Source: a virus. From it: a stretch of DNA of 55,033 bases. The stretch lies in the UHGV virus genome UHGV-0072939; one strand, written 5' to 3'. The position numbers and the translations under genes were made by a program. Positions 1,036-47,400 of this stretch are shown here, in pieces (the stretch's first letter is position 1; each line of letters opens with the position of its first letter). The notes beneath the pieces were generated by a model that was not told where the DNA came from, did not search any database, and saw nothing but the letters and a program-made list of their open reading frames with translations.

Positions 1036-1249
1036 ACACCTCTCATCAATACTGATTATACATACAGTAGTTTTAACGAGAGAGCAGATCAACCCCTGAT
1101 TTCTGGCTTTCCTGTAACCCGTTATGGGATGAAGATTTTTAGTTTTCCGGGGCAGCCGCTGGTAAACTGCGCGGCGGTTGCCAACGGCATGAACACCCGT
1201 CAACCAGCCGCAGCCCGCTCTGCATACGGCGGGGCTGCGGCGCCACAGT

Positions 1250-25607: not shown

Positions 25608-26660
25608 TTATGTCTGGTTGAGCGCCTGCAGCTCGCTGACCGTCTGAATAAATCGCTCGGTCTCAAGCTCTACGCCGATCGCCCGGCGCCCAAGCTCCAT
25701 TGCCGCTTTCACGGTGGAACCCGAGCCCATAAAAAAATCGGCTACCGTGTCGCCCGGCCTGCTGCTGGCGCTGATAATCTGCCTGAGCATGTCAGCAGGT
25801 TTTTCGCAGGGATGCTTCCCCGGGTAAAACTGCACAGGCTTGTGGGTCCATACGTCGGTATACGGAACCGAGACGGATACAGAGAAACAGCGCCGGAGAG
25901 TTTTGTATTCCTCCAACAGCGCTGAATATTTCCGGTTGAGCGACTGGTATGTGCCCACCAGCTGGTGGTGTGGATGTTCAAGTTCCTGCCGCTGGTGCTT
26001 TTCTGCCGCGATGCGGGTGAACAGCTGCTGCAGCGTCAGGTAATCATTCTCGTTCGGTAACTGCCACTGGCTGGCGCTAAACCAGTGCGAGACCATATTC
26101 TTTTTGCCCGTGGCGTCGGCGATAGCTTTGCTCGTTACGCCAAGTGCCTCGCGGGCGTTGCGGAAATAGTCAATCAGCGGCGTCATGACATGCTGCTTGA
26201 GCTCGTTGCTTTTGCGGTCGTAACCGTCATCCTTCTCTTTGTATGGTCCCGTGTGATGTTCAGCAAAAAGAATACGCTCGGTTGCCGGGAAGTAAGCGCG
26301 AAGGCTTTCTTTATTACAGCCATTCCAGCGGCCAGAGGGCTTTGCCCAGATAATATGATTCAGGACGTTGAACCGCGCCCGCATCATGATTTCAATATCA
26401 GATGCCAGTCGATGCCCGGAGAACAGATACAGGCAGCCGGCTGGTTTAAGCACTCGCCAGAATTCCGCCAGACATCCGTCAAGCCAGAGCAGGTAGTCCT
26501 CATCCCCTTTCCACTGGTTGTCCCATCCGTCCGGTTTCACTTTGAAGTAAGGCGGATCGGTAACAATCAGGTCAATGGAGTTGTCCGGGAGAGAAGCGAT
26601 GAAATGCAGACAGTCAGCGTTGATTAACTCAACACTGTTTATTTTTACAGTATTTTTCAT
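25608..26660 (-). CDS. orphan DNA methyltransferase, amino-methyltransferase (N6-adenine or N4-cytosine) with DPPY motif
   Basis: 350 aa; DPPY near N-terminus and FFMGSGST (AdoMet-binding) near C-terminus, i.e. beta-class motif order; no adjacent restriction endonuclease gene. Confidence 0.8.
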   Translation of the reverse strand: MKNTVKINSVELINADCLHFIASLPDNSIDLIVTDPPYFKVKPDGWDNQWKGDEDYLLWLDGCLAEFWRVLKPAGCLYLFSGHRLASDIEIMMRARFNVLNHIIWAKPSGRWNGCNKESLRAYFPATERILFAEHHTGPYKEKDDGYDRKSNELKQHVMTPLIDYFRNAREALGVTSKAIADATGKKNMVSHWFSASQWQLPNENDYLTLQQLFTRIAAEKHQRQELEHPHHQLVGTYQSLNRKYSALLEEYKTLRRCFSVSVSVPYTDVWTHKPVQFYPGKHPCEKPADMLRQIISASSRPGDTVADFFMGSGSTVKAAMELGRRAIGVELETERFIQTVSELQALNQT

Positions 26661-30929: not shown

Positions 30930-30943
30930 GCTTTTTCTCCATA

Positions 30944-31330: not shown

Positions 31331-33366
31331 GCCACCTCCCGCTGCGGATCCGCGCACATCTCAGGTAAGTTTGCCTCCACCAGCGCGCGGGCGAATGGTG
31401 GCGGGACGGCGTTGCCGCAGCGCGCGACCTGCTTATCCTTCGCGTAGCGGTTGCCCCGGTAGTCCTGATCGATAACGTAGCCATCCGGGAAGCCCTGGGC
31501 TTTGTACAACTCATGGGGCTGCAACATACGCATGCCGATATCAACAATCTGGTACTTAACACCCTCGATCGTCACCAGCCATTCGTCTTCGCTTTCCCCG
31601 CAGTAGGTTTCCAGGAATGTCCGAACCTCCCCTACATGCTGGCCGCCGGCGGTGATGGTTGGCATCGGTTCGTCCAGGCGCTGCCCGTCGCGGCATGTTC
31701 CCCTTAATTTGATTAGATGCGACGTCACCATCGCGCTATCAGCTTTTGTAGTCAGGGTTTGAATAGGCTCACTTACATCCCTAGGACGGCTCTGCCCGGC
31801 ACGACCGCCTACACCTACGACCTGTGCACTTACAAGTGCGTGGTGATCGACCGTCGTCACGGAGTGTGCTGGCTCATCCAGACCCACGCCCGGGCCCGTA
31901 TAATTCCCGCCGTAGTGCTTCGCCAGGAATGCGCTCACCGTTGCAAACTTATTGCCACCAGCGGTAACTGTGCCCAACGGGGTATCGATTTTCAGCACGT
32001 GCGGCTGCTGCCCCGGACGCTCACCGTAGCCCATCTGTATCAGGGTTGGTGTAACCAACTGGGATTTACCGCCACCACCCGCTGTGATGGTCGCACTCGG
32101 CTCATCCGCCCGGTGGCCGATACTGGCGCCGAACTGGCGGGCAATCACTGGCGTAACCAGGCAGGCGCGGGATTGCTTCAGGATAGTGTGGGCAGGCTTA
32201 TTCAGCGCGCGCGGCTTCGCCTGGTATTCGCTGCCGCCGTTGCCAGCCAGGAATGGTGTCAGCGCCGCCTCAACAACGCCTAGGGCATGACCATTCCCGC
32301 CCGGACGCGCCGATGTGCCAGCGGTCACCGTAGGAACCGGTTCGGTAACGGGTTGCCCGGTTGCGCCGGTGCGGAATTTAGTCAGGTGCGGTACCGCTAT
32401 CGCGTAGCCGTGGGTTTTGGTGATGGTCTGCAGCGGCGCGCCCAGCTCCTGACCACGAAAACAGTCATAGCTACCTTTCGTCGTGGTGTGGTTACATTTC
32501 ACGATGAACGGCGAGGCGCTCTCGATGACAAACCGCTGGATACCGCGCGCAATACGCTTCAGGGTATTTTCTGCCAGGGGCTTTTTGCGATCGAAGATAG
32601 AAAGCGCCGGGATATTCCAGTCGATACACTCCGCCGCGGTGCGCCACGGCGCCAGCCTGCCGCTCTGCACTTCCAGTGATTTCGGATCCCCGTGGGTCGG
32701 TTCAGGCCAGTGAATGGCTTTACCATCGCAGCGCATGACCATAAAGAAACGGCGACGGATTGTCGGCGCGCCATAGTCGCACGCGCGCAGCTCGCGATAA
32801 TCGACGTCATAGCCGAGCCCGGCAACCAGCTGTTGCGCCTGCCCGCTGCCAGGTTCAATAGAGAGAAATTCGCAGACCTCAGCCAGCGCCGGATGATCTG
32901 CCGGGATCCCCGTTGACAGCATAGCGACAAACGCCGTGAACGTTTCGCCAGCACGCGCAGGATCCGGGCGCATTTCGTCAGCCAGCAGCGGCCCCCACGT
33001 TTTAAACTCTTCGACGTTCTCCAGCATCATTACGCGTGGTCGCTTCGCCAGCGCCCAGCGGATAACTACCCACGCCAGCCCGCGGATTTCCTTCTTCACC
33101 GGCTTCGCGCCTTTCGCCTTTGAAAAATGGCGGCAGTCGGGGCTGAACCATGCCAGGCCAACAGGATGCGCGCCAGTGGCAGCAACCGGATCCACATCAA
33201 ACACCGATTCGCAGTAATGCAGCGTGTCGGGGTGGTTGGTCTTGTGCATGGCGATGGCGTTTTCGTCGTGGTTGATGGCAATATCCACGCTGCGCCCTAT
33301 GGCGAGTTCGATCCCGGTAGAGGCACCGCCGCCGCCGGCGAAGTTATCAACGATAATTTCACGCAC
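31327..33366 (-). CDS. DNA cytosine-5 methyltransferase with long C-terminal extension
   Basis: 679 aa; motif I FAGGGG, motif IV-like SPDCRHFS, motif VI ENV (MLENVEEF). Confidence 0.8.
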   Translation of the reverse strand: MREIIVDNFAGGGGASTGIELAIGRSVDIAINHDENAIAMHKTNHPDTLHYCESVFDVDPVAATGAHPVGLAWFSPDCRHFSKAKGAKPVKKEIRGLAWVVIRWALAKRPRVMMLENVEEFKTWGPLLADEMRPDPARAGETFTAFVAMLSTGIPADHPALAEVCEFLSIEPGSGQAQQLVAGLGYDVDYRELRACDYGAPTIRRRFFMVMRCDGKAIHWPEPTHGDPKSLEVQSGRLAPWRTAAECIDWNIPALSIFDRKKPLAENTLKRIARGIQRFVIESASPFIVKCNHTTTKGSYDCFRGQELGAPLQTITKTHGYAIAVPHLTKFRTGATGQPVTEPVPTVTAGTSARPGGNGHALGVVEAALTPFLAGNGGSEYQAKPRALNKPAHTILKQSRACLVTPVIARQFGASIGHRADEPSATITAGGGGKSQLVTPTLIQMGYGERPGQQPHVLKIDTPLGTVTAGGNKFATVSAFLAKHYGGNYTGPGVGLDEPAHSVTTVDHHALVSAQVVGVGGRAGQSRPRDVSEPIQTLTTKADSAMVTSHLIKLRGTCRDGQRLDEPMPTITAGGQHVGEVRTFLETYCGESEDEWLVTIEGVKYQIVDIGMRMLQPHELYKAQGFPDGYVIDQDYRGNRYAKDKQVARCGNAVPPPFARALVEANLPEMCADPQREVA

Positions 33367-34258
33367 TGGTCACCCCCTGTATGCTGCTGACCAGTCCACC
33401 AGCAACCGTTATGATTTCGCTGGTTGGCATACGCTCGAGCCACAGCTGGTTAATGTTCGCTTTCAGCTTGTTCTGCTGCGATGCATCCAGAGAATCCGCC
33501 CCCTCAACCTGGTTGAACACCAGACCAACCTCAAGCGGCCAGATACGCGAATCCACATCAGGTAATGCTGCTGGCGCTACAATGGGTTCTTCTTGCTCTG
33601 GCGCCGTGGTGGCTGGTGGCTGAACCTTACCCGCGGCAAATTCGACAAGCGCCATGAAAGCCTGGCCTTTAGCCTCCAGCTCTGTGCGGTGGATATAGCT
33701 GAAGCGCTCGCCGCGCCAGGTCTTGTCAAACACAGCGATGGCGCCCGCAAAAAATGCGCTGGTGGGCTGCTGCTTGTCGTCTACAGGTACAAACCATTCC
33801 GGAAGGTCAAAACCGATGCGACCGCGGATGAAAACAATGTGGTCTGCATCTTCCGGCCACCATGTTTCGCTTGGTGCTGCTTTGACCAGAAACACATAGC
33901 GACCGCCCTTCTCTCGCATGGCCATCGTGTGGTTAATGATGTGGGTCATCCCGGTGATTGCCTGCTTTTCGTGGTACTGCGATCGGCTGTATGGCGGGTT
34001 AGCAAACGCGGCGCCGCCGAGTTCCGCCAGGCGCTCAGACCAGTCCTGCGTCAGCGCGTTGTCTTCTGCGGTATACCAGGCAGGGCATTTAGCGTTGCTG
34101 TCGTCGGCAAAGAGGTCCAGCACCAGCGGGCCAAACATCGCATTAATCCCCCAGAACAGCAGCTCCGGCGTGCGCCACTGATCGCCAACTTCTTTCAGCT
34201 TGTGAGCGTTCCTGCTGCGCATTTCCGCCAGCGCCTGGCAGTATTTATTTTCATTCAT
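33359..34258 (-). CDS. phage Dam-type N6-adenine DNA methyltransferase with extra C-terminal domain
   Basis: 299 aa; FANPPYS motif and N-terminal WRTP...DLFA pattern of phage N6A-MTases. Confidence 0.75.
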   Translation of the reverse strand: MNENKYCQALAEMRSRNAHKLKEVGDQWRTPELLFWGINAMFGPLVLDLFADDSNAKCPAWYTAEDNALTQDWSERLAELGGAAFANPPYSRSQYHEKQAITGMTHIINHTMAMREKGGRYVFLVKAAPSETWWPEDADHIVFIRGRIGFDLPEWFVPVDDKQQPTSAFFAGAIAVFDKTWRGERFSYIHRTELEAKGQAFMALVEFAAGKVQPPATTAPEQEEPIVAPAALPDVDSRIWPLEVGLVFNQVEGADSLDASQQNKLKANINQLWLERMPTSEIITVAGGLVSSIQGVTSA

Positions 34259-35115
34259 CCCCTGAACCCCTCAGGAATCTTGGTATCAACTGGCCCGAAC
34301 TTCACAGGATCATGCTTACGAGCTGCATCCCAGTACTGGCGCTCCGGGCGGCCTTTGCTATCCCAGCGGGTAGCGCTGGACAGGTACCCTTCGAACTTTT
34401 TCGGCCCAAACAGGGTTTCAGGACGCATGTACTGGTACTGCTCATCGTTGCCGTTCCAGTGCTCGTGCTTCAGGTCAATAACCAGCTTCAGGTCATTGAC
34501 GCTGTAACCTTCCCGCAGACGGGCGCGGATGTTTTCCAGCGAGGTCCTTGATTTCTGGTAGCGCGATCCGCTGACCTGGTTCAGATGGAGCAAAACTTCA
34601 ATCGCATGGTCAGTAATCACCACTTCCGGGTCGGGTTGCGCAGCAACCGGACAAGAAGGTTTTTTATTTACTGATGGATCAGTAGTTGTATTTACTGACG
34701 GATCCCCGCCAGATCCTGACGGGTGAAAACGCCCCTTTTTGCCGGATTCTGATGCATCAGATTTTGACGGGTCAGATTTTGATGCGTCAGAATTTGACGT
34801 GTCAGAATCTGACAGGTGAGAAAAGGCCGCAGCCTGAAGCTTTGCCACATTCAGCTGGTAAACGTTTGAAGCATTGCGGTTACCGTTGCGGCGTTGTTTG
34901 CGTGACAACCAGCCCTCCTGCTCAAGCTTACCGATGGCGGTACGTACGGTGCTTTCCCCCGCCCCTATCTGCCGGGCAATGGTCCCGATAGACGGCCAGC
35001 ACACGCCCTCGTCACTGCTGAAGTCGGCCAGGCGCGCCATGATGGCAACGCTGGACAGCTTCATGCCAGAAGCGGCGCAAGCGTCCCATACGTAGCCGGT
35101 TAATTTAGTGCTCAT
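34255..35115 (-). CDS. replication initiation protein (lambda O-like role), ori iterons inside the gene
   Basis: 286 aa; N-terminal winged-helix-like region, low-complexity SD-rich linker encoded by iteron-like repeats, conserved C-terminal phage replication domain. Confidence 0.7.
   Translation of the reverse strand: MSTKLTGYVWDACAASGMKLSSVAIMARLADFSSDEGVCWPSIGTIARQIGAGESTVRTAIGKLEQEGWLSRKQRRNGNRNASNVYQLNVAKLQAAAFSHLSDSDTSNSDASKSDPSKSDASESGKKGRFHPSGSGGDPSVNTTTDPSVNKKPSCPVAAQPDPEVVITDHAIEVLLHLNQVSGSRYQKSRTSLENIRARLREGYSVNDLKLVIDLKHEHWNGNDEQYQYMRPETLFGPKKFEGYLSSATRWDSKGRPERQYWDAARKHDPVKFGPVDTKIPEGFRG
34667..34818. repeat. iteron-like direct repeats (about eight copies of a 15-bp unit with core CTGA(C/T)G); candidate replication origin
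   Basis: tandem units TCAGATTTTGACGGG / TCAGATTTTGATGCG / TCAGAATTTGACGTG / TCAGAATCTGACAGG read directly at 34758-34818, with further copies upstream to 34667. Confidence 0.55.
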
Positions 35116-35287
35116 GGTCGTTCTTTATCTCCCTGAACTTGCGCTGAAACTGCTCGAGCGGGCTGAAACATTCACCGTGTTCATAGTCCTCGCGCAGGTA
35201 GATAACGCGCCTCGTTTCTGGCTCCCAGCGAATAACACGGACGGGCACGCCGTGGTGGTCTTTGAACCTTCGGTTAACTTCGCGCAT
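35105..35287 (-). CDS. hypothetical small protein (60 aa)
   Basis: ORF only; overlaps replication gene start. Confidence 0.35.
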   Translation of the reverse strand: MREVNRRFKDHHGVPVRVIRWEPETRRVIYLREDYEHGECFSPLEQFQRKFREIKNDHEH

Positions 35288-35459
35288 AAGCGTTTCGCCT
35301 TCCTGTAGTAAACACCCACAATTGCGGCCGCCCGACTGTGGTTACATGGCACCCAGCGGTTTGATATTCTGCGTTCATACCGAAACAGCGGAGTTCCCTG
35401 CACCGGGATCATCCTCAGTTGCGGTAAACGGTTAAAAGCCGTTAAACTGGTCATGCGGA

Positions 35460-36026
35460 TTATTTCTCCATACACGAAGAGTTGTTCGCCAAGGCGCCCG
35501 GAGCTGCACACTCGCGGGCGTCACTTTTTTCCGGCGCACAAAACACACGAAACAGCAGCGTCAGATGCTCCTGCCACTTCGCCATCACCTGGTAACTGTT
35601 CTCTTCGATTTGCTCACGTTCTGCCGGGTCAATAACGCCGTCAGCGGTCGCCTTGCGCAGGTACTGTGAGTGTCTGCCGATCCATTCGATTGACTCCATC
35701 AGGCGCTGGTTGATGTCACCGTTGTCGACGTCATCAATGTCCACCAGCGGCACAAACACACCACCGCTACGGCGGGCTATCGCATCGGTGACGTACTTAG
35801 TGCCGCTGGCATCCTGCAGCACCATCGCCCACTCAAGCGGGAAAATCTGGTCGCCTTCGCTGCGCAGCCGGTTATAGAGCGCATCGGTTGAAACTTTTCC
35901 GGCGCGATACAGGCCAAGCCATTCAGCAGCTTCGGCATATCCGCCAGGCATTTCGGCGATAGTCCGTTTAATGGCAGCCACCAGCCAGGCGGGCTGTCGT
36001 TCGACTTTCCAGTGTTGTTTATCCAC
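35460..36026 (-). CDS. regulatory protein in the CII position (possibly YdaT-like); start uncertain
   Basis: ORF 35460-36128; GTG at 36026 with AAGGGG SD is the favoured start, to limit overlap with the cro-like gene. Confidence 0.4.
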   Translation of the reverse strand: MDKQHWKVERQPAWLVAAIKRTIAEMPGGYAEAAEWLGLYRAGKVSTDALYNRLRSEGDQIFPLEWAMVLQDASGTKYVTDAIARRSGGVFVPLVDIDDVDNGDINQRLMESIEWIGRHSQYLRKATADGVIDPAEREQIEENSYQVMAKWQEHLTLLFRVFCAPEKSDARECAAPGALANNSSCMEK

Positions 36027-36054
36027 GGTTGTCCCCTTGTTTCTGTGGTATTCG

Positions 36055-36252
36055 TTAAGCGACTGTCTGATTAGACTTTTGATAAAGAACGGAGCTGTAC
36101 TTGAGCTTTCCTTTCGTGATCCGCTCAATCACAAAAGCTTGCTTCTCGGGGATGATCTCCCCCCATCGACAAACTGCTGGATGGGAAATACCTAATGCAT
36201 TAGCAGTTTTGGCTACTCCGCCGAAGTGCTCTATGACTTCAGATTTGCGCAT
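36055..36252 (-). CDS. Cro-like HTH repressor
   Basis: 65 aa, AGGAGG SD, HTH (VAKTANALGISHPAVCRW); divergent from the cI-like gene. Confidence 0.7.
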   Translation of the reverse strand: MRKSEVIEHFGGVAKTANALGISHPAVCRWGEIIPEKQAFVIERITKGKLKYSSVLYQKSNQTVA

Positions 36253-36277
36253 GATTCCTCCTGGTTACCTTACGCAC

Positions 36278-36348
36278 CACAAGGTAACAAAAGGTACATT
36301 AAATAGCAAACAACAGTTACCATCAAAAGAGGTAACATTGGTTACATG
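36278..36348. promoter_or_regulatory. operator-like AGGTA direct-repeat pairs in the cro/cI intergenic region (OR-like)
   Basis: AAGGTAACAAAAGGTACATT and GAGGTAACATTGGTTACATG read directly; same unit recurs downstream of cI. Confidence 0.45.
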
Positions 36349-37005
36349 AAAACAGAGATGAAAGACCGTATTCGTTCGCGTCGAGTCCAGCTCGATATGA
36401 CTCAGCTTACCCTTGCCAAAAAGCTTGGGGTCAGTCGCGTGTCTGTAACGAAATGGGAGAATGGAACAACGAAGCCGGATGGTGAGAATTTACACCAACT
36501 TGCTGGTGTACTTCAGGTAACCCCGGAATGGATTCTCTATGGCAAAGGAGATGCTGACGTTGATGATATCAAATTAGTCCCCTTCCTTAAGCCGCCAACA
36601 GCAGTGCCTATTATATCAGCCGTTCAGGCTGGTTTATGGACAGAAACCTACGCCAGTTCAAGGCTTACAGACGTGATTGCATGGACACAAACTACAGCTA
36701 ATGTATCTGATGAGGTTTTCGGGTTAGTGGTCCGCGGAGAGTCAATGACTAACCCTCATGGATTGCCATCAATTCCAGAAGGTTCCATTGTTATCGTTGA
36801 ACCACATTTCGGGCAAATTGATGATCTTTACGGGAAAATAGTCGTTGCCACACTGGAAGGCTCTACCGAAGCGACTGTAAAAAAATTAGTGTGGGATAGC
36901 CCATTCGCCTATCTCATGCCACTTAACCCAGCTTTCAAGCCTATCCAAATTGACGGAAACTGCCGAATTGTCGGCAAAGTCGTCCAAATAACCCAGAACA
37001 TTTAA
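36346..37005 (+). CDS. CI-like prophage repressor (HTH plus S24 peptidase domain)
   Basis: 219 aa; N-terminal HTH (LTQLTLAKKLGVSRVSVTKWENG), C-terminal GESM...K (VVRGESMTNP, KKL) LexA-type autocleavage domain. Confidence 0.85.
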   Translation: MKTEMKDRIRSRRVQLDMTQLTLAKKLGVSRVSVTKWENGTTKPDGENLHQLAGVLQVTPEWILYGKGDADVDDIKLVPFLKPPTAVPIISAVQAGLWTETYASSRLTDVIAWTQTTANVSDEVFGLVVRGESMTNPHGLPSIPEGSIVIVEPHFGQIDDLYGKIVVATLEGSTEATVKKLVWDSPFAYLMPLNPAFKPIQIDGNCRIVGKVVQITQNI

Positions 37006-37020
37006 CCCCCCAGATATGTA

Positions 37021-37047
37021 GCCAAAGTTACCTTTGGCTATTTTTTT
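37021..37047 (+). terminator. intrinsic terminator downstream of the cI-like gene
   Basis: GCCAAAG-TTAC-CTTTGGC hairpin followed by TATTTTTTT. Confidence 0.7.
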
Positions 37048-37053
37048 ACCCCT

Positions 37054-37109
37054 AAAGGTAACATTAGGTACATTTCACGCTTGACCATCAAGGTAACTAA
37101 AGGTACATT
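37054..37109 (+). promoter_or_regulatory. candidate early rightward promoter with overlapping operator repeats (PL-like)
   Basis: two AGGTAAC-N-AGGTACATT repeat pairs; TTGACC (37081) 17 bp upstream of TACATT (37104). Confidence 0.4.
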
Positions 37110-37847
37110 CAATCCATCAACAGCGAACAGGCAGGACGCCCACGAAGTAGCCGCCGGTGGCATACGAAAAACCGGATGATTCGCTGACAGGTGTCTTCGG
37201 GAGGGGTAACAGGGTCGCGGCCTGATTAACCGCTACTCGTAGTCAAATTCCTACAGCTGGTGGCGATACCCAAGCCAGGAATACCTAAAACCAGCAGGGA
37301 GTGTTAAGGACAAGGGCTAATCATCCCCCTTAGCACCCCGCCCGAAGATCCCTGTTATTGCCAACGACCCTTTCTGGCGGCCCGTGTTTTCCCTTATGTC
37401 CGCGGTCACCGCCAGCTTTTTCAGGGCACAACATGCAAGCGCATTCTATCTAACATCGGTCGTGGGGACTGGTTTGTAACTGAAAGAGTGCGCTTCCAGT
37501 TGTGATGTGCTCAAGCGAGCTGCAGCGCCGGCCGACGCAAAGACCTGTGAATCGGCTTAGCCGCAGTTTCTGGCGGCCAATACCAAAACAGAGCGGCAGG
37601 AAGTAAGCGGGTTAGCGACCCGGTGTCACAACGTTCAATCCCGATAAGCACCCTTGCGAGGATGTTTATCGGGACTGGAAGAGTTACCACTTGGAGACGG
37701 TCCTTATAAATGTCCTGGGAAGTGGCGCTTTGGTCGCGATAACAACCACTCCAGTTGATCCTGGGAGTTATCAGGTCAGTGAGCTGCCAGCACTCTCGAC
37801 GGCAGTGACGGCGGGAAGTAGACCGCTGACAGCTGGGAAAGACCAGC

Positions 37848-37936
37848 ACACAACAGATAAGAGCATCGCCGGGCGACGGGCTCATAACCCAACCCACCCG
37901 GGCGGTTGCAGCCGCAGGTGCTCTTATCTGTTGTGT
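37848..37936 (+). other. perfect 18-bp inverted repeat (ACACAACAGATAAGAGCA / TGCTCTTATCTGTTGTGT) with 53-bp GC-rich spacer in a long untranslated leader
   Basis: read directly; right arm contains boxA-like TGCTCTTA; lies ~50 nt upstream of the first early ORF. Confidence 0.6.
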
Positions 37937-37985
37937 ATGGAGATAACTTACTGGCGGTGGCAGCCGCCGTTACGAGGGTAAACCG

Positions 37986-38357
37986 ATGAGCAATGATCGC
38001 ATGACCATAGTGCCCGATTTCCTGGGCGAACTGGATGCCGGGGTGTTCATGAACAAAATCGCGGCAGCTTTAAACACCACCGCGCTTGGTGTTCTGAATA
38101 ACGGCAGCAAAGGCAAAGTAGTCCTCACCTTTGACTTTGAGCGTATGGGTAACTCCGTCGAGGAGAAGCGCGTCAAGATCAAGCACAAGCTGAACTACAG
38201 CACCCCAACTCCGCGCGGTAAAGCCTCCGAAGAAGACACCACCGAAACACCTATGTGGGTTAACAAAGGTGGCAAGCTGACCATCCTGCAGGAAGATCAG
38301 GGGCAGTTGTTCGGGATCAACGGCGGCGTTGACGGAAAGCTTAAAGCGGCACAGTGA
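37986..38357 (+). CDS. hypothetical early protein (123 aa)
   Basis: GAGGGT SD before ATG 37986; first gene of rightward early operon. Confidence 0.4.
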   Translation: MSNDRMTIVPDFLGELDAGVFMNKIAAALNTTALGVLNNGSKGKVVLTFDFERMGNSVEEKRVKIKHKLNYSTPTPRGKASEEDTTETPMWVNKGGKLTILQEDQGQLFGINGGVDGKLKAAQ

Positions 38358-38410
38358 TCCGCAGCAGACAAATCACTGACATCACTTTGACCACATATTA
38401 AGGAAATTTT

Positions 38411-39241
38411 ATGTCCCAGATTTTAGACGGCAATGCCCTGCAGCAGGTGAAAGACCTGGTTCTTTCCGGTTACCACCTGACTGCTGTTAAAGAAACGGCA
38501 TGCCCTACCGCCCTTCTCCCTGAAGGCGTAAACGTTGAAAGCCTCGAGCGTTTCGACCTGGAGCGTTTTCGTTTCCGCGGCGCCATGACCACAACCAGCA
38601 TTCCTGATTTTGTGCGTTATGCGGCTGGCTACGCCAACGAGGCCGAACCAGCGCGCTGCTTTATCGATGCTGACAACATGACCGCACGCTCCGTCTTTAA
38701 TATCGGTACGCTGGCTAACCCAGGCCATGCTGATAACGTCGCCTCTATCACCCTCAAAAAGACAGCACCATACCGAGCCCTGCTCCAGATTAACGGTGAT
38801 CGTCTGGGTCAGAAAGAAATAGCTGAGTGGCTGGAAGACTGGGCCGACTACCTCACCGCATTTGATGCCGACGGGAATGTATTGTCCATCGCGCAAGCAG
38901 CTGGTGCTGTTCGCCGCGTCAACATTAAACAAGTCTCAGAAGCAGCTCATGAAGACGAAGACTTTGGCGGCAGAAAGTCCCTGATGCAGAGCGTTGAAGC
39001 CAGCAGCAAAGACGTCATGCCGGTGGCCTTTGAGTTCAAATGCGTGCCATATGAAGGCCTGGGCGAACGCCGCTTTAGTCTGCGCAATAGCCTGCTCAAA
39101 AGTGGGGAACCGATATTTGTGCTGCGCATTGTTCAACTGGAAGCCCAGGAAGAAGCTATCGCCAATGAGTTCCGAGATCTGCTGATCGAGAAATTCACCG
39201 ATAAGCCGGTAGAAACCTTCATCGGTAATTTCAAAGCGTAA
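38411..39241 (+). CDS. YfdQ/DUF2303-like early protein
   Basis: 276 aa; recalled resemblance to CPS-53 prophage YfdQ; followed by HD-domain gene as in that prophage. Confidence 0.45.
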   Translation: MSQILDGNALQQVKDLVLSGYHLTAVKETACPTALLPEGVNVESLERFDLERFRFRGAMTTTSIPDFVRYAAGYANEAEPARCFIDADNMTARSVFNIGTLANPGHADNVASITLKKTAPYRALLQINGDRLGQKEIAEWLEDWADYLTAFDADGNVLSIAQAAGAVRRVNIKQVSEAAHEDEDFGGRKSLMQSVEASSKDVMPVAFEFKCVPYEGLGERRFSLRNSLLKSGEPIFVLRIVQLEAQEEAIANEFRDLLIEKFTDKPVETFIGNFKA

Positions 39242-39377
39242 TTGCATTGCCTTAATTGCCCTGCGCGCCGGGGCAATTAGTGAAGCGTAATTCCGTTAAT
39301 TATCGCCACCTGGCGAGGGATTCGCATACCCAAAAACAGCCGCAGGTGCAGCTGCGAAAATATGGAGAAGTACAGCG

Positions 39378-39917
39378 ATGAGCTATATCCAGACACTTTC
39401 TGGCAAGCATTTTGACTACATCAACGCCACCACTGACGATATTGATATCGAAGATATCGCCAACGCGCTTTCTAATATCTGTCGCTTCGCCGGCCACCTG
39501 CCGGAGTTCTACAGCGTCGCCCAGCACTCTGTGCTAGCCAGCCAGATTGTACCGCCTGAGCTTGCCCTGGAAGCGCTGCTGCACGATGCGGCGGAAGCCT
39601 ACTGCCAGGACATTCCGGCGCCGCTGAAAGCCCTGCTGCCGGATTACCGCCGCATTGAAACGGAGGTGGATGACTTGATCCGCAGCAAGTTCAACCTCCC
39701 GATGCACCAGACGGACGTGGTGAAGTATGCCGACCTGATGATGCTGGCCACTGAGCGGCGCGACCTCGAGATCGATGACGGGTCAGTGTGGCCCTGCCTC
39801 GAGGGTATCCCCTGCTCCGATATCGTGCAGATTGTCCCGCTGCGACCGGGCCAGGCGTTTGGTCTTTTCATGAATCGCTTTAACGAGCTGATGGAGATCC
39901 GCAAATGCGCCGCCTGA
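39378..39917 (+). CDS. HD-domain phosphohydrolase (YfdR-like 5'-deoxynucleotidase)
   Basis: 179 aa; H...HD...D metal-binding pattern (AQHSV, LLHDAAEAY). Confidence 0.6.
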   Translation: MSYIQTLSGKHFDYINATTDDIDIEDIANALSNICRFAGHLPEFYSVAQHSVLASQIVPPELALEALLHDAAEAYCQDIPAPLKALLPDYRRIETEVDDLIRSKFNLPMHQTDVVKYADLMMLATERRDLEIDDGSVWPCLEGIPCSDIVQIVPLRPGQAFGLFMNRFNELMEIRKCAA

Positions 39918-40120
39918 AGGTGAAAGAACTTGTCACAGAGGCGCATGCCGCTGTGCCGGGACTACCACCAGCTACAGCAGCGCTGATGCGCGAGATGGCG
40001 ACCAGACTCGATGTCACCTTTACAGCATTGACCGAGTTGATGGATCAGCGGGTGGCGCTTATGGCTGAAATCGAATGTCTGCGTGACAGCAGCAGCGTTA
40101 GTAAGGAGCGTGCAGCGTGA
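39905..40120 (+). CDS. hypothetical small protein (71 aa)
   Basis: ORF overlapping neighbours by a few nt; no family recognised. Confidence 0.35.
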   Translation: MRRLKVKELVTEAHAAVPGLPPATAALMREMATRLDVTFTALTELMDQRVALMAEIECLRDSSSVSKERAA

Positions 40121-40944
40121 CAGTTCATACATTAAGACAATGTCGTCCAGACCAGGAAGAGACAGAGTATTTCTGGAAACTTTTTCATGCTGCGCAGCGT
40201 AATGATGCTCGTTGGCACGGCAGTGAAATCGGCTTTATTGCTGAAGAACTTTCCCGCACGGATTTGGACCGCAACCAGAAGCTCTTTCTCCTGCGCGCCT
40301 GGCAGGTGCTCGTCGATGATAAAGGCGGGTTTGGGCGCTTTATGGGGGCGTTCGATACCTATGTGTTCAATATGCAGGATCCTGATGATGACTGCGTAGC
40401 GTGGAAACCTGAACTGAGCAAGCTGCTACAGGACGGTGATCTGCTGGATGTTGTGCTGGAGGCATATACCGAAGCGCAACGGCGCATCGCCGAGTTGGAA
40501 GCCAGAACGCTGGCAGTGAAGCTGCTAGATGAGTTTTACACCATCGCCGAAAATATCCACACTCAGGACAACCGGATCACTTCAGACCCGATGTTTTGCG
40601 TATACCAAAAGCGTGAAATTGTTGTCGATGCAGACTACGACTATGACCGCATTGTATGGGTTGATGAAGAAGGCAATGAAGCCAGCCCGCACCAGAGCGC
40701 GCGTCTTGAATTACTCCATGAAAACTTTCGCGAGCCGCCTGAAAAATGGCGCAGAATTGCGGTGAAAGAGATTGATGATTTCGTTACCTGCTGCTTTACC
40801 GAGCAGGGTTGCAAAGACTACTTGGCGTGCAATGGCCATAATCTTCGCCTGCCATTTATCTACGTAAAAAGCGGATTCAGGAATGCTGAATACATCGGCC
40901 TTCGAAACTGGTTAGCTGGCATCACTGTAAGCGAGGGAGAGTGA
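40117..40944 (+). CDS. hypothetical early protein (275 aa)
   Basis: ORF with ATGA-type coupling; no family recognised. Confidence 0.4.
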   Translation: MTVHTLRQCRPDQEETEYFWKLFHAAQRNDARWHGSEIGFIAEELSRTDLDRNQKLFLLRAWQVLVDDKGGFGRFMGAFDTYVFNMQDPDDDCVAWKPELSKLLQDGDLLDVVLEAYTEAQRRIAELEARTLAVKLLDEFYTIAENIHTQDNRITSDPMFCVYQKREIVVDADYDYDRIVWVDEEGNEASPHQSARLELLHENFREPPEKWRRIAVKEIDDFVTCCFTEQGCKDYLACNGHNLRLPFIYVKSGFRNAEYIGLRNWLAGITVSEGE

Positions 40945-40945
40945 T

Positions 40946-41365
40946 ATGGCTCTGACCAAAAAACAGCGTGCAGAATTGCGAATGAAGTTCGGCGGTCGCT
41001 GCGCTTATTGTGGTTGCGAATTGCCGGAAAAGGGCTGGCACGCCGATCACGTAGAAGCTGCGTTACGGAAATGGGAATTTGGGGACCGCCAGGCCAATGG
41101 AACACGCCGCACAGTTGCCACTGGAGAATTCTGGAAGCCTGAGAACGATTCTCTAGAAAACCTTTTCCCGGCCTGCGCCCCCTGCAATTTGTTTAAGGCT
41201 ACTTTCAGCATCGCACTATTCCGCCATGAGATAGCGCAGCAGGCGGAGCGTGCCCGCGCATACAGCGTCAATTTCCGCACAGCTGAACGTTTTGGCCTGG
41301 TTGAAGTGATAGAAAAGCCAGTTGTGTTCTGGTTCGAACGGTATCAGGAAGGAGTGCCAGCATGA
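40946..41365 (+). CDS. HNH endonuclease
   Basis: 139 aa; CxxC ... HADH ... CAPCN zinc/HNH motif arrangement. Confidence 0.7.
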   Translation: MALTKKQRAELRMKFGGRCAYCGCELPEKGWHADHVEAALRKWEFGDRQANGTRRTVATGEFWKPENDSLENLFPACAPCNLFKATFSIALFRHEIAQQAERARAYSVNFRTAERFGLVEVIEKPVVFWFERYQEGVPA

Positions 41366-41859
41366 CCAATAACAACCTGACAGAAGAAGAGTTGAACGGC
41401 CTCGCCGAAGAAATGCAGCTGTGCGCCAACCGCTGCCGACACCAGGGCTTGGAGGGTAACGCGCGGGAGTATGACCAAATTATTTGTGCCCTGCGCGAGC
41501 TTCAGCAGCGCCGGAAAGCTGATGAGCTGTCGATCCAGACAGCGCCAGCGCTGTATTCTTTATCAAAAACAGGCGAAGTGCGCTGTAGCAACTATCCGGT
41601 AATTCCGGATGGATACTGCATCATGCCTGTAACGCTGACTGCGGAGAATGGCGCGAAACGTGCTTTATCTGGTGAGTTCAGCATACCCCGTTCCGTTACT
41701 TGTCCTGAGTGTGGCGGCGACGGTTGCAGTGATTGTGATGGGCGCGGCGACTGGAATGAGGATCAGATCATTGACTGGCCGACAATAAAACTCATCTACC
41801 AAAAAGCAGTAGAAGCATGCGCAATAGCCGCAACACAGAAACAGGATAAATCAGCATGA
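41362..41859 (+). CDS. hypothetical Cys-rich protein (CPECGGDGCSDCDGRG zinc-ribbon-like)
   Basis: 165 aa; CxxCxGxG repeats. Confidence 0.4.
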   Translation: MTNNNLTEEELNGLAEEMQLCANRCRHQGLEGNAREYDQIICALRELQQRRKADELSIQTAPALYSLSKTGEVRCSNYPVIPDGYCIMPVTLTAENGAKRALSGEFSIPRSVTCPECGGDGCSDCDGRGDWNEDQIIDWPTIKLIYQKAVEACAIAATQKQDKSA

Positions 41860-42425
41860 ACCACTTAATGATCGACCTCGAAACCATGGGTAACAAGCCA
41901 AAGGCGCCAATTGTCTCCATCGGTGCCGTGTTGTTTGACCCGCAGAGCGGCGCGCTGGGCGAAGAGTTTTACACGGCCGTGCAGCTCGAAAGTGCAATGG
42001 TACAAGGCGCGGTTCCTGACGGTGACACCATCATCTGGTGGATGAAGCAAAGCCCGGAAGCCAGAGCAGCGATTTGCGCTGATGATGCTATGCCTGTAGA
42101 TGCAGCGCTTTCCGAGTTGAGCCACTTCATCAACCGTCACGCGGACAACCCGAAATATTTGAAGGTGTGGGGCAATGGCGCAAACTTCGACAACGTCATT
42201 ATTCGAGGCGCGTACGAGCGTGCCGGCCATATTTGCCCCTGGCAATTCTGGAACGATCAGGACGTGCGCACGATGGTGACCCTCGGTCGCGCTATTGGCT
42301 TCGACCCGAAGCGGGATATGCCGTTTGATGGTGAGGTGCATAACGCGCTGGCCGACGCCCGCCACCAGGCCAAATATGTTTCTGCTATCTGGCAGCGACT
42401 GGTGCCCACCAGCACCGAAGAGTAA
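41856..42425 (+). CDS. DEDDh-type 3'-5' exonuclease
   Basis: 189 aa; IDLETMG (exo I) and HNALADA (exo III) motifs. Confidence 0.75.
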   Translation: MNHLMIDLETMGNKPKAPIVSIGAVLFDPQSGALGEEFYTAVQLESAMVQGAVPDGDTIIWWMKQSPEARAAICADDAMPVDAALSELSHFINRHADNPKYLKVWGNGANFDNVIIRGAYERAGHICPWQFWNDQDVRTMVTLGRAIGFDPKRDMPFDGEVHNALADARHQAKYVSAIWQRLVPTSTEE

Positions 42426-42467
42426 AGGTAAATGCCCGGGTGCAGCCGGGCTGTGTGGAGAAACTAC

Positions 42468-42839
42468 ATGACCAAGTTGATCAACAAAAAAGTATGCGCC
42501 CTTACCGGACGACAGCGACAAGTTCTGGACTTTGTTACCCAGTACATCGCCAGTCACGGTATGCCACCCACTAAATCTGAAATCGCTGTCGGGATGGGAT
42601 TTTGCTCGACAAATGCAGCTGTTGAACACTTACGCGCATTGGAGAAGAAAGGCTTCATAGAGATACGTACTGGTGTTTCGCGCGGGATCATGCCTGTAGC
42701 AAAGCGAGAAATATCGCTACCATCCACCAGCAATGAAGATTACTGGTTTGATGGCACTTTTCAGCATCGGCGCTATGAGCGTGATATATGCAAAGCAGTT
42801 GAAGCGATGGGATTAAAGGTTTTGGGGGGTGGATCATGA
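42468..42839 (+). CDS. LexA N-terminal DNA-binding-domain homologue lacking the peptidase domain
   Basis: about 123 aa from ATG 42468 (GGAG SD); LTGRQRQVLDFVTQYIASHGMPPTKSEIAVGMGFCSTNAAVEHLRALEKKGFIEIRTGVSRGI closely parallels the LexA winged-helix domain; no GDSM/KR domain follows. Confidence 0.7.
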   Translation: MTKLINKKVCALTGRQRQVLDFVTQYIASHGMPPTKSEIAVGMGFCSTNAAVEHLRALEKKGFIEIRTGVSRGIMPVAKREISLPSTSNEDYWFDGTFQHRRYERDICKAVEAMGLKVLGGGS

Positions 42840-43045
42840 ATCTTGAATGCGTACCCATATCAACTTACTGCCGTGACTCCGGCGAGACCGTAGAAGCTGT
42901 TAATAAACGGATACAAAGGGGATTATGGCAGGAAGGGGTCCATATATTAAAGATCGATGGCGTAAAAGAGCGCTGGATTGATTTAACTGAGGTCACGAAA
43001 TGGGCGAGAAAAAACAAGGATCCTTACAGCTCCCACGCGGTATAA
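42836..43045 (+). CDS. excisionase-like protein
   Basis: 69 aa immediately upstream of and overlapping the integrase gene. Confidence 0.5.
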   Translation: MNLECVPISTYCRDSGETVEAVNKRIQRGLWQEGVHILKIDGVKERWIDLTEVTKWARKNKDPYSSHAV

Positions 43046-44175
43046 CCGCGCGCCATCATAAGAACGGCTCAACACTTATTATCACGTTCACATATAAAGG
43101 GGTTCTATGCCGGGAACCCCTTTCCCGTATCGAGCTGAATCCAAAGGGTATAAAATATGCAGAACGCCTCCTGGGAGAGGTTCAGAACAGAATTGCGGAG
43201 GGTGATTTCGATTATGCCAAATACTTCCCAAAATCTAAGAAGTTGGATATTTTTGGGAAAGTTAACCGGACAAAAAACATCAAGTCTTATCTCGATGAAT
43301 ATCTGGAGATCTGCGCAAATCGAAACTTATCGCCATCGACAATTGGAGGGTATGAAAAATGCCTCTCAGCTCTGTCTGATTTACATAAACTACACGTCGC
43401 CGAGCTTACACCGGCAGTATTGAAAAACTGGATCGCCAGCCGGAAAACAAAGCTTAAAACGATACGAAACAACCTCTCATTTTTGCGTAGCGCAATCGAT
43501 GAGGCAGTGACTGATGGGCTGTTGACGATAAACCCGGTTACGCTTGTCAGCGCCAGCCGGTACCACGTGATCGACAGCACGCCGAACCCCGACGATTACG
43601 AGGTGGATCCGTTCACACCTGCAGAGGCCAGCGCCATTTACATGCACTGCAGGTTTCAGGAATGGGAAAACCTGTTCCGCTTTGCATTTAACACCGGGAT
43701 GCGTAGTTCTGAACTGTGCGCGTTGCGCTGGCCTGATATCGACTTTATCGAGAATACTGCTCACGTTCAGGCAGCCAGCGTTGTCGGTGTGCTGAAGGGT
43801 ACCAAGACAAAAGCTGGTACCCGTAAAGTCGAGCTGAATAGCGATGCGCTGTCGGCGCTGCAGGCGCAAAAGCCATTCACCTTTATGAAGAGCGATTTCA
43901 TCTTCAGCGATCCTAAAACAGAGAAACCATGGGCAAACGCTGATGCGATTCGAAAAAAGGCCTGGGTCCCCACGTTGAAGAAAGCAGGAGTTCGGTACCG
44001 AAACCCATATCAAACACGCCATACGTTCGCTACGCGCCACATCAGCCAAGGCGTTAACCTTTTCTGGTTGGCCGGGCAAATGGGGCACAAAGGACCGGAA
44101 ATGTTGTTCCGTCACTATGGTTCCTACCTGGCTGCTTATGATGGGAAAACGGCAATTGAAGCGAGGAAATTTTGA
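43000..44175 (+). CDS. tyrosine integrase (lambda Int family)
   Basis: 391 aa; C-terminal catalytic region with R...HTFATRH...Y pattern (RHTFATRH, HYGSY). Confidence 0.9.
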   Translation: MGEKKQGSLQLPRGITARHHKNGSTLIITFTYKGVLCREPLSRIELNPKGIKYAERLLGEVQNRIAEGDFDYAKYFPKSKKLDIFGKVNRTKNIKSYLDEYLEICANRNLSPSTIGGYEKCLSALSDLHKLHVAELTPAVLKNWIASRKTKLKTIRNNLSFLRSAIDEAVTDGLLTINPVTLVSASRYHVIDSTPNPDDYEVDPFTPAEASAIYMHCRFQEWENLFRFAFNTGMRSSELCALRWPDIDFIENTAHVQAASVVGVLKGTKTKAGTRKVELNSDALSALQAQKPFTFMKSDFIFSDPKTEKPWANADAIRKKAWVPTLKKAGVRYRNPYQTRHTFATRHISQGVNLFWLAGQMGHKGPEMLFRHYGSYLAAYDGKTAIEARKF

Positions 44176-44283
44176 GTCCTTCCTGACGGAGGGAGGACAT
44201 CGCAAGGACATGAAAATGCACGTAAAATGCACTCACAGAGTTTTTAAAAGTTAATTTTGTTATATATCAATACATTAAGATAG

Positions 44284-44319
44284 TTTCGGACACGGGTTCA
44301 ACTCCCGCCAGCTCCACCA
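44284..44319 (+). other. prophage attachment site: partial copy of the tmRNA (ssrA) 3' end
   Basis: TTTCGGACACGGGTTCAACTCCCGCCAGCTCCACCA matches the recalled 3' end of E. coli tmRNA with one mismatch; upstream sequence is not tmRNA, so this is a partial att copy. Confidence 0.7.
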
Positions 44320-44448
44320 ATCATGATTGGACGGTGTAAGGACAACACCAACAAAAACAGGAAGTTAGAAGTCTCAGCAAAACACCGACCAGACGGTGAG
44401 GAGACATAAAAGGATACGCAAAGGAGCCGCGGCTCCTGGTAACATGAA

Positions 44449-44470
44449 AGCCCACAGATGTGGGCTTTTT
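44449..44470 (+). terminator. intrinsic terminator hairpin (bidirectional context)
   Basis: AGCCCAC-AGAT-GTGGGCT followed by TTTTT; lies just past the 3' end of the minus-strand autotransporter gene. Confidence 0.6.
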
Positions 44471-44479
44471 CGTTGATGG

Positions 44480-47400
44480 TCAGAACGACCAGTTCACACC
44501 AGCTACCGCGTTCCACGGGGATTCCACACCGGCACTATGGCTATACCCCACCCCAAGATGCCCGCTTAACGTACTGCTGAATGAGGCTTTAATACCTGCC
44601 TGGTATATTCCACGTCTGCCCGACAAATAATTGACGAAATTACCGTCACTATTCACTTTCACCCGGTTATCATCGACAAATTCTTTGCGCACAGCCGCCT
44701 TCAGCCACGGCTCAACTTCCATACCGTTCCCCAGACGCATGTTGTAACTCAGCGTTGCGCCCAGTTCACGATATATACTGCGGGTATCGACTGATTTCGA
44801 TTTCATGCCATTGGATAAATGATATTCGGGGTTATCAGCGGTGAACCCCGTTAACGATGCATACGGCGTCAGGTTCCAGTTACCATCGGTAAATCGCATC
44901 CCGGTTTCAATGTGACCGCCCAGCCCGTTGCTGTGGTAACTGCCATTGGCGGCTCCACCGCTGCTCATTTTACCTGCTACGTTACTTTTAAAACGGTTCA
45001 GCTTCACGACACCGTCCAGATAGAAACCACTTTCATGTTCCCAACTGGCATAGCCGCCCAGAGAATAACTGCCCACACTGCCATGTCCTCCGCGATCAAA
45101 ACCGATATGTGAATGGGAATAGCCCATAAAAGCGCCTAGCGTGGTAATTCCTTCAGGAATATCATTACGGCTGTCGATCCCCACTGTCATTCCGGTCAGC
45201 GTCTGCTCAAACCCGGCACCCGCATCGGTGGTGACATTATTACGGGTGTTATACGTCGCCCCCCAGACATTATTGTTGTGTGGACTCGCTTTCATTATGT
45301 TCAACCGCTCGCGAATACTGTTTAGCTCAGCATCAAATACCAACGGTAATGTTGCTGCCATATTGAGTACGGCTGCCGTAGAAGGCGTAATGCGTTTCTC
45401 CGGAACGGGTGTCGGCGTTGGATCGGGAGTAGGGTCTGGTTTTGGATTTGGGTCTGGCTTTGGATCGGGTTTTGGGTCTGGCTTTGGATTTGGGATGGGG
45501 TCCGGGTTGGGTTTGACATCATTGGTCAGGTTCCAGTTGCTGTTGCCGTCACTTTTCAGGACATACTCATAGGTCCCAAGATCAACGAAACCGCCGGTAT
45601 TGCCCAGCGTAAACGAAGCATCCCCTCCCCCTGTTTTCACCAGCGTCATCGCGTCGTCAGACTGTGGGCTGACGCCGGTATCCTGAACAAAGATTTTAAA
45701 ATTACCAGTGGCGTTGTTGTTGACGACCAGTTGATCGCCCCGGGAGCCTGCAACGTTGGTATGCAGGTAGAAATTACCGCTACCGGAAAGTTCATTGGTT
45801 GTCAGCGTATTGTAGATACCGTTAGTTGTGGCAGGCGCTGCTGTTTGTGCTGACAAATAAACATCACCGTCGTTGAGTAGCAAACTGTTTACTCTATATT
45901 CGCAGTTGCTGGTACCTGCACAGGAATTATTGCTGTTAAGCCAGACACTGCCCCGGCTGGCAGCCGTCAGGTCGGCAAGCGTGGTATCGACGCCATTTCC
46001 CAGAGTCAATGTCGCGCTATCGGTAATCCGGACCGCCCCTTCGAGTTTAACTGGCGTAACATTATCCCGTGGCGTCATTAACGACAGGCTTCCTGTCGCG
46101 CCACTGACCGATGCATCCGCCAGCGTACCTGCGTAGACGATTGCCGTACCGCCAGCGACCTGGAGATCTTCTGCCCGGGCCAGAGCCTGAAACTCATCTT
46201 TTGACCGCCCAAGGGTATATTGCCCGCCAGAGTTAACCTTTGTGGCGGAGTCCTGACCCAGGTTTTGCATTGCCCCACCCTTGCCAACCGTGGAGTCGCG
46301 AGCTTCGGTACCTGCTAATACCAATAAATTACCGCCATTTTCCAGCAACATATTAGTCGCTAAATTGCCGGAAATGGAAAAAGTACCGTACTGGTGAGTA
46401 CCGCTGATTTCAATACCGTTAGCCGTGCTCGTCTGGAGAGCGGCACCGCTGTTCTGGACGATATCTGTCGCTTTGCCATTATCGTTGACTGTCAGCGTAC
46501 CGCCTTCATTGATCTTTGTTTTTATTGCCTCTCCGTTAGCTGAAACTGTTTGTATTCCGCCGTCGTTAATTGTTGTCTCATTCGCCACACCCTCGACAAT
46601 TTGTTCACCGCCGGTGAGCGTCGTGCCTGTCGCAGTGGCTTTTGTTTTGACGATCTCCCGTCCGCCCATATTGACCTGTGTTTTGTCAGAAGAGGTGTCT
46701 GACTCCACGGTTAACACGCCGCCATTTGCCAGCAGGATATTGTTCGCCGCACCCTGCTCGATGCTGAACGCGACGCCATCCGCGCGTGTTCCTGTGACCC
46801 GCGTCGCCCTGGTGGTTGCAACCAAAGCGCCCTGGCTACTCTGCTGTATCCCCGTTGCGCTGCCTTTCTCCCGCACATCGAGTGTGCCGCCGTCATTAAG
46901 CACCGAGTTTTCAGCCAGACCGCCCTCATTAACTACCTGTGAACCCCCATTAATAATGGAACCTTCCGCTGTCCCGTTTGCCATAATTTGTTGTAGGCCA
47001 GAGACGATATCGGTATTGATTGCCTTACCATAATTCTGAACGGTTTGCGTGCCACCATTGATGTGTGTTTTCTCTGTTGACCCACCATCAACAATTTGTT
47101 CACCACTTTCGATATTTGCTTCAGTGGCTAAACCATATACCGTTTGCTTGCCACCTTTGATATTTGCTTTATCAGAAGTGGCACTGGCATATATTGTTTG
47201 GGTGCCAGCACTATTGAGTACAGTGCCAACATCTTTTCCATAAACATCCATTTTGCCGTTGGCATTAATAATCGTGTCAACTGCGCGGGAACCAGTGACG
47301 ACTGTTAATGAGCCAGCGTTTTCCAGCACTACATTTTTAGCTTCTGAATTCCTGATGTAGAAAGCATCACCATAACTGTTGGTTCCTTCGATAAGTGTTC

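What the first reader, a model, noticed from the sequence alone, without database searches (positions are those of the whole stretch)
42468..42839. LexA DNA-binding domain homologue without the autocleavage domain, encoded next to xis-int
Seen: residues after the start follow the LexA winged-helix domain almost position by position (LTGRQRQVLDFV...GMPPTKSEIA...GF.S.NAAVEHLRALEKKGFIEI..G.SRGI), but the protein ends after ~120 aa with no GDSM/Lys peptidase domain. Established knowledge: a LexA DNA-binding domain without the cleavage domain acts as a non-inducible repressor at SOS boxes. Inference: a phage-encoded uncleavable LexA mimic could hold host SOS genes or phage promoters repressed, or heterodimerise with host LexA.
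Basis: partly seen in the sequence, partly recalled or inferred. Interest (0 to 1): 0.65.

Follow-up and report, generated by a model that had tools for sequence, protein, structure and literature searches.

The report
Phage LexA-like DNA binder without protease
An E. coli prophage encodes a small protein that copies the DNA-binding head of the host's DNA-damage repressor LexA but swaps the self-cleaving half for a short, uncharacterised tail; similar genes are already annotated in many phages, and none has been studied in enterobacterial phages.

Summary
ORF 42468-42839 (+, 123 aa) has a LexA winged-helix domain (Pfam PF01726 E 1e-22; E. coli LexA 1lea E 3e-19, 57% identity over LexA residues 3-67). 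It has no S24 peptidase domain and its stop overlaps the xis start, so it is not a frameshift artefact.

It is not a bare DNA-binding domain. Residues ~81-119 form a conserved module (LP..EYWFDGvFQHrRYERDv) found in about 30 phage or prophage loci of Enterobacterales. The same module is also fused to non-LexA N-termini.

The gene is the last accessory gene of the CI-controlled early-left operon (cI, pL-like promoter, ... exonuclease, this gene, xis, int) of an SfV-like prophage integrated at ssrA. It should therefore be made after CI inactivation, not in the lysogen.

Four of the five LexA DNA-contact residues are kept (S, N, A, E; E44 is V), so binding to SOS-box-like DNA is plausible. Relatives vary at these positions, and the only characterised truncated phage LexA homologue (GIL01 gp6) is an activator with its own palindrome.

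Heterodimerisation with host LexA is unlikely because the dimerising domain is absent. DBD-only LexA homologues are already annotated in 60-70 phage genomes. Verdict: real, a new variant of a known kind, moderately interesting.

The parts
42468..42839 (+). Gene for the 123-aa LexA-DBD-plus-tail protein (stop included).
   Evidence: ORF list and sequence. Pfam PF01726 E 1e-22. PDB LexA E 3e-19.
42498..42692 (+). Winged helix-turn-helix domain, residues 11-75, homologous to LexA residues 3-67.
   Evidence: AF2 pLDDT 83-91 over this part.
42606..42647 (+). Recognition helix, residues 47-60 (STNAAVEHLRALEK). The LexA contact positions 39/41/42/44/45 read S/N/A/V/E.
   Evidence: with contact residues named in PMC3091678. 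The stretch NAAVEHLRALEKKG is identical in SfV orf42 although the DNA differs at about 7 third-codon positions over it.
42708..42824 (+). Conserved C-terminal module, residues 81-119 (ISLPSTSNEDYWFDGTFQHRRYERDICKAVEAMGLKVL). It replaces the S24 domain.
   Evidence: P85, Y92, W93, G96, F98, Y103 and D106 are invariant in every alignment made; G115 is invariant in the family alignments and nearly invariant (>=90%) once non-LexA fusions are included. The same module is fused to non-LexA N-termini in L015, L026, L038 and P0171. No Pfam-A or PHROG hit for the tail alone. AF2 pLDDT is only 59-71 here.
42434..42460 (+). Short leader: GC hairpin GCCCGGGTGCAGCCGGGC (42434-42451) and Shine-Dalgarno GGAG (42457-42460).
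   Evidence: Sequence; palindrome scan. Not conserved upstream of homologues.
37081..37109 (+). pL-like promoter (TTGACC-17-TACATT) overlapping repeats of the CI operator motif. It is the predicted source of the transcript that carries the gene.
   Evidence: Promoter scan. Operator-like repeats AGGTAAC..GGTACAT occur here and between cI and the divergent gene. This is a consensus match only; transcription was not shown.
36346..37005 (+). CI-type repressor (HTH_3 plus Peptidase_S24), the RecA-sensitive master repressor of the prophage.
   Evidence: Pfam. A terminator-like hairpin lies at 37018-37041.
41856..42425 (+). Rv2179c-like 3'-5' exoribonuclease gene, the immediate upstream neighbour. 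It is also adjacent to the homologue in yong2-like and Pantoea phages.
   Evidence: Pfam PF16473 E 5e-74; synteny.
42836..43045 (+). Excisionase gene; its start overlaps the stop of the LexA-like gene.
   Evidence: phrog_2917 E 9e-38.
43000..44175 (+). Tyrosine integrase gene.
   Evidence: Pfam Arm-DNA-bind_2 plus Phage_integrase.
44288..44319 (+). Prophage/host junction: the sequence GGACACGGGTTCAACTCCCGCCAGCTCCACCA. I recognise it from memory as the 3' end of E. coli ssrA (tmRNA); this identification was not tested here.
   Evidence: Sequence. DNA to the right (from about 44284) is 100% identical to E. coli chromosomes, including ypjA/EhaD.
1050..1069 (-). Candidate target 1. SOS box TACTGTATGTATAATCAGTA, 18 nt upstream of a 79-aa ORF (1032 to 793) that overlaps a UmuD'-like S24-only ORF (to 413).
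   Evidence: PWM score 22.9-23.6, inside the range of the 21 E. coli sites used to build the matrix. ORFs.
26633..26652 (-). Candidate target 2. SOS box TACTGTAAAAATAAACAGTG covering codons 3-9 of the post-Q N6_N4 DNA methylase gene (26660 to 25608).
   Evidence: The box sits at the same offset in SfV and yong2 and occurs in at least 120 viral contigs. It is also present in phages with no detected LexA-DBD gene, so host LexA is the simplest binder.

Best explanation
The gene encodes a RecA-insensitive, LexA-type winged-helix DNA-binding protein. It belongs to the delayed-early gene set of an SfV-like temperate phage integrated at ssrA of E. coli.

Shown: the N-terminal 65 residues are a LexA DNA-binding domain. 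The S24 cleavage and dimerisation domain is absent and is replaced by a conserved ~40-residue module. The gene is the last accessory gene before xis-int, in an operon that starts downstream of cI.

Inferred: the gene is silent in the lysogen and is transcribed from the CI-controlled pL-like promoter once CI (and host LexA) have been cleaved, or after infection. The recognition helix keeps S39, N41, A42 and E45 of LexA, so the protein would bind CTGT-containing, SOS-box-like sites. The C-terminal module would supply the self-association or partner contact that the S24 domain supplies in LexA. Because the protein cannot be cleaved, it would re-occupy SOS-box-type operators during lytic growth, when host LexA is gone. 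Candidate operators are host SOS promoters and the prophage's own LexA-boxed genes (the UmuD'-like operon at 1050-1069, the methylase at 26633-26652 and probably the dinI-like gene). Whether occupancy would repress or activate at a given site cannot be told from sequence.
For: - Domain identity.
- No S24 domain, and the stop overlaps xis.
- The architecture is conserved in about 30 loci from E. coli, Hafnia, Erwinia, Pantoea and Rahnella phages or prophages, so it is a functional gene and not a remnant.
- Operon position: cI, terminator, a pL-like promoter overlapping the CI operator repeats, then a co-directional run of genes ending in this gene, xis and int. No promoter-like site lies just upstream of the gene. 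The order is the same in Hafnia phage yong2 and at least 10 viral contigs.
- Four of five LexA contact residues are kept (PMC3091678).
- The helix NAAVEHLRALEKKG is identical to that of the otherwise divergent SfV orf42 subfamily, while the DNA differs at about 7 third-codon positions over it. This indicates selection on the helix rather than recent transfer.
- The window holds three sites that score like real E. coli SOS boxes, against about 0.4 expected by chance. Two lie at gene starts.
- DBD-only LexA homologues have reached a two-DBD arrangement by other routes, namely tandem double-DBD proteins and the helical tail of SfV orf42. This fits a need to pair two DBDs on a palindrome.
Against: - No binding data exist for this protein or any family member.
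- E44 is replaced by V.
- Other family members differ at positions 42, 44 and 45. The nearest syntenic relative, L009, has L and V at 44 and 45. The family as a whole therefore probably recognises diverse, phage-specific sites.
- The prophage's SOS boxes are explained well enough by host LexA. The methylase box is kept in Flotzy and phiP27, which show no LexA-DBD homologue among the listed hits. It is canonical in yong2, whose LexA-like protein has a different helix.
- GIL01 gp6 shows that a truncated LexA homologue can evolve its own site and act as an activator.
- The tail's role in self-association is a guess. It is modelled with low confidence (pLDDT 59-71) and has no structural or family match.
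Confidence: 0.4

Rival explanations
1. It is a phage-specific transcription factor of the gp6 type. The LexA-derived domain has drifted to recognise a site of the phage's own, not the host SOS box, and the protein times phage gene expression as an activator or repressor of a phage promoter.
For: - GIL01 gp6 is a truncated LexA homologue that binds GaCACAC GTGTGaC at -43.5 of the late promoter and activates it.
- Recognition-helix positions 42, 44 and 45 vary strongly among family members, as expected if each phage has its own operator.
- Family members occur in early operons on either side of the immunity region, as phage regulators do.
Against: - This member keeps S39, N41, A42 and E45.
- No repeated non-SOS palindrome was found. 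CTGT..ACAG arrangements other than the N8 spacing are not enriched once the 42 spacings tested are allowed for.
- No palindrome is conserved upstream of the family genes.
- The OR/OL region holds a different repeat, which fits the CI repressor.
- The phage already has a Q antiterminator for its late genes.
Confidence: 0.35
2. It is an accessory DNA-binding factor for site-specific recombination. It would bind near attP or the int promoter and help or regulate excision and integration, as some small winged-helix or HTH proteins next to int do.
For: - The gene directly abuts xis (the stop overlaps the xis start) here and in L003, L008 and L009.
- It lies just upstream of int in L023 and L028.
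- In L026 a protein with the same tail but a different N-terminus lies just upstream of int (the tail match ends near 8108, the int match starts at 8420).
Against: - About a third of family members sit in the nin region, far from int.
- The SfV orf42 subfamily, with the same recognition helix, lies between dam and rusA.
- No CTGT-type repeat was seen between int and the junction.
Confidence: 0.07
3. It works by protein-protein contact rather than DNA binding. The tail or the LexA-like surface would bind a host or phage partner (host LexA, RecA filament, ClpXP, or the prophage's own UmuD'-like S24 protein), acting as a decoy or as one half of a split LexA-like regulator.
For: - The tail is a portable module, also joined to unrelated N-termini (L015, L026, L038, P0171). 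It matches phrog_343-type small proteins of unknown function.
- The same prophage encodes an S24-only UmuD'-like protein under an SOS box, and a DinI-like protein.
Against: - LexA dimerisation uses the C-terminal domain, which is absent here (PMC3091678). From my own knowledge, not checked here, RecA* docking also uses that domain.
- The wHTH, including wing residues S63 and R64, is conserved across nearly all the family (SfV orf42 has A at 63), which argues that DNA binding is kept.
- No co-occurrence of the tail with an S24-only gene was tested.
Confidence: 0.08
4. It is a decaying fragment of a captured lexA gene with no function.
For: It is short, lies at the end of an operon and is rare. 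Only one cluster at 90% identity or more was found among 5.8 billion proteins, and megablast found no match among 5,426 complete E. coli genomes.
Against: - The full-length architecture and the invariant tail residues are conserved at 32-60% identity across several genera.
- The reading frame is intact, with a good ribosome-binding site.
- The recognition helix is kept despite synonymous divergence.
Confidence: 0.03

Closest known systems
E. coli LexA repressor (PDB 1lea, 1jhf, 3jso; NCBIfam TIGR00498)
   Same: - N-terminal winged helix-turn-helix, 57% identical over LexA residues 3-67, aligned without gaps as far as the 'LP' of the linker.
- Contact residues S39, N41, A42 and E45 and wing residues S63 and R64 are kept.
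   Different: - No S24 peptidase or dimerisation domain, no Ala84-Gly85 site and no Ser119/Lys156.
- The TIGR00498 score is below the cut-off.
- E44 is V.
- No SOS box lies upstream of its own gene.
- It is encoded in a phage early operon rather than as an autoregulated chromosomal gene.
GIL01 gp6 (Bacillus thuringiensis tectivirus), truncated LexA homologue (PMC6182141)
   Same: Both are phage-encoded early gene products that consist mainly of a LexA DNA-binding domain, lack the cleavage domain and are made once repression is lifted.
   Different: - gp6 is essentially the DBD alone, whereas this protein has an extra conserved C-terminal module.
- gp6 comes from a Gram-positive tectivirus that uses host LexA as its prophage repressor. 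This phage has its own CI with an S24 domain.
- gp6 binds its own palindrome and activates the late promoter. Here late genes have a Q antiterminator.
- Target and sign of regulation are unknown for this protein.
SfV orf42 / mEp460 / cdtI / Stx2c-phage 'LexA DNA binding domain protein' (PHROG 362, annotated 'transcriptional repressor')
   Same: - Both are DBD-only LexA homologues in SfV-like and lambdoid enterobacterial phages, with 58.7% identity over the DBD.
- The recognition helix NAAVEHLRALEKKG is identical, including the E44V change.
- Both are early-operon genes, and both are uncharacterised.
   Different: - The C-terminus differs: orf42 has a ~35-residue tail (AVKDDDSEAVGIIRSLLAGEENARLRATHWLHKRGLKV), not the EYWFDG module.
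- phrog_362 matches only residues 11-76 of the window protein.
- The location differs: the nin region between dam and rusA against the end of the early-left operon here.
Hafnia phage yong2 QXN68751.1, annotated 'repressor LexA'
   Same: Same family and length (123 aa), 49% identity including the tail, and the same position after the 3'-5' exoribonuclease at the end of the cI-side operon.
   Different: The recognition helix is SPNSATLH (positions 42/44/45 read S/T/L). It is followed by an int on the opposite strand, with no xis overlap. The annotation is by similarity only.

Membership tests
Canonical LexA repressor (TIGR00498) | N-terminal LexA-type winged helix-turn-helix | tested here: met
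   PF01726 E 1e-22; 1lea E 3e-19; TM 0.89 to 1lea.
Canonical LexA repressor (TIGR00498) | C-terminal S24 peptidase domain with the Ser/Lys dyad, which also dimerises the protein | tested here: not met
   No PF00717 hit. The protein ends at residue 123 and the next gene is xis.
Canonical LexA repressor (TIGR00498) | Whole-protein score above the NCBIfam equivalog cut-off | tested here: not met
   66.2 bits against a cut-off of 110.95; only model positions 3-67 of 203 are matched.
Canonical LexA repressor (TIGR00498) | Autoregulation through an SOS box upstream of its own gene | tested here: not met
   No PWM hit of 8 bits or more near 42300-42470. The upstream 90 nt hold only a GC hairpin.
Canonical LexA repressor (TIGR00498) | Binding to CTGT-N8-ACAG SOS boxes | not testable with these tools
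   Only indirect evidence: four of five contact residues are kept (PMC3091678).
Phage-encoded truncated LexA homologues (GIL01 gp6 type) | Phage gene encoding a LexA DNA-binding domain without the cleavage domain | tested here: met
   (prophage context); PMC6182141.
Phage-encoded truncated LexA homologues (GIL01 gp6 type) | Binds a palindrome at a phage late promoter and activates it | not testable with these tools
   No candidate non-SOS palindrome was found. The phage has a Q antiterminator.
PHROG 362 (SfV orf42-type 'transcriptional repressor') | Full-length match to the 106-position profile | tested here: not met
   Only residues 11-76 match profile positions 3-68. SfV orf42 itself matches positions 1-106.
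EYWFDG-tail family (LexA-DBD plus tail; yong2 QXN68751, P0018, P0028, P0079) | LexA wHTH followed by LP-x6-YWxxGxF-x4-YxxD-x8-G | tested here: met
   P85, Y92, W93, G96, F98, Y103, D106 and G115 are invariant in the family alignments; G115 drops to nearly invariant (>=90%) when non-LexA fusions are added. 48-60% identity to members.
phrog_343-like small phage proteins (tail module with other N-termini) | HMM match to phrog_343 | tested here: inconclusive
   L015 and L026 proteins with the same tail hit phrog_343 (E 9e-11 and 9e-8) across the tail. The window protein and its isolated tail do not reach E 0.01. P0171 carries a precomputed PF26207 label that is not in the Pfam copy available.

The most novel reading that the evidence does not exclude
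This protein and the SfV orf42-type proteins that share its recognition helix would be phage 'SOS shut-off' factors. They would be uncleavable LexA surrogates made from early phage operons that re-occupy SOS boxes after RecA* has destroyed host LexA. This would silence host SOS functions, LexA-controlled antirepressors of rival prophages, colicins or SOS-triggered defences, and the phage's own LexA-boxed morons during lytic growth. The portable EYWFDG module would act as a new, minimal dimerisation or partner-binding domain standing in for the S24 domain.
Probability: 0.2. Interest if true: 0.7.

Novelty: new variant of a known kind. Interest (0 to 1): 0.4.

Why it matters
If the protein does bind SOS boxes, temperate enterobacterial phages, including many Stx2c and other Stx phages that carry the orf42-type gene with the same recognition helix, would have a direct RecA-proof handle on the host DNA-damage regulon. 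That would bear on the timing of prophage induction, on cross-talk between co-resident prophages and on SOS-driven mutagenesis.

If instead it has its own operator, it would be a second example, and the first in Gram-negative phages, of the gp6 route by which a captured LexA head becomes a phage regulator.

Either way the C-terminal module is an uncharacterised, portable domain. The system is easy to test: a small soluble protein, known candidate sites and available reporters.

Tried and rejected
- **Frameshift or split LexA.** Rejected. The next genes are xis and int, and homologues have the same length.
- **Recent capture of host lexA.** Rejected. Identity to E. coli LexA is only 57% and the best database LexAs reach 60-68%.
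- **Recent recombination with SfV orf42 to explain the identical helix.** Rejected. The DNA differs at about 7 third-codon positions across the 14 codons.
- **Own operators elsewhere in the window.** I scanned CTGT/ACAG pairs at spacings 0-20 in both orientations. Only N8 (3 against 0.67 expected) and N14 (3 against 0.57) stood out. That is not convincing after 42 tests, and the N14 sites are inside coding sequence. No palindrome is conserved upstream of family genes.
- **Functional link between the SOS-boxed methylase gene and the LexA-DBD gene.** 40 of 49 viral loci with the box carry orf42 4-5 kb upstream. However, Flotzy, LLS, Eeyore, phiP27 and the Stx2a LC5678xx phages carry the methylase leader and are absent from the 60 of 61 LexA-DBD records listed. 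The box itself was read and confirmed only in Flotzy and phiP27. I take the co-occurrence to be genetic linkage in one mosaic module.
- **Searches with the tail alone.** The word-indexed searches returned only four short ORFs. At least one is a frameshift-split gene in a long-read assembly, so they added no depth.
- **Second AF2 run with a 10-row alignment.** It did not improve the tail. Foldseek against PDB matched only the LexA head.
- **Rfam scan of 26000-45000.** It found nothing at gathering thresholds.
- **Papers.** The papers of Neher et al. 2003 and Zhang et al. 2010 could not be read. Statements about ClpXP removal of the LexA N-terminal fragment rest on the citing text in PMC3159453. 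Atomic-level contacts rest on PMC3091678 and PMC5999292.
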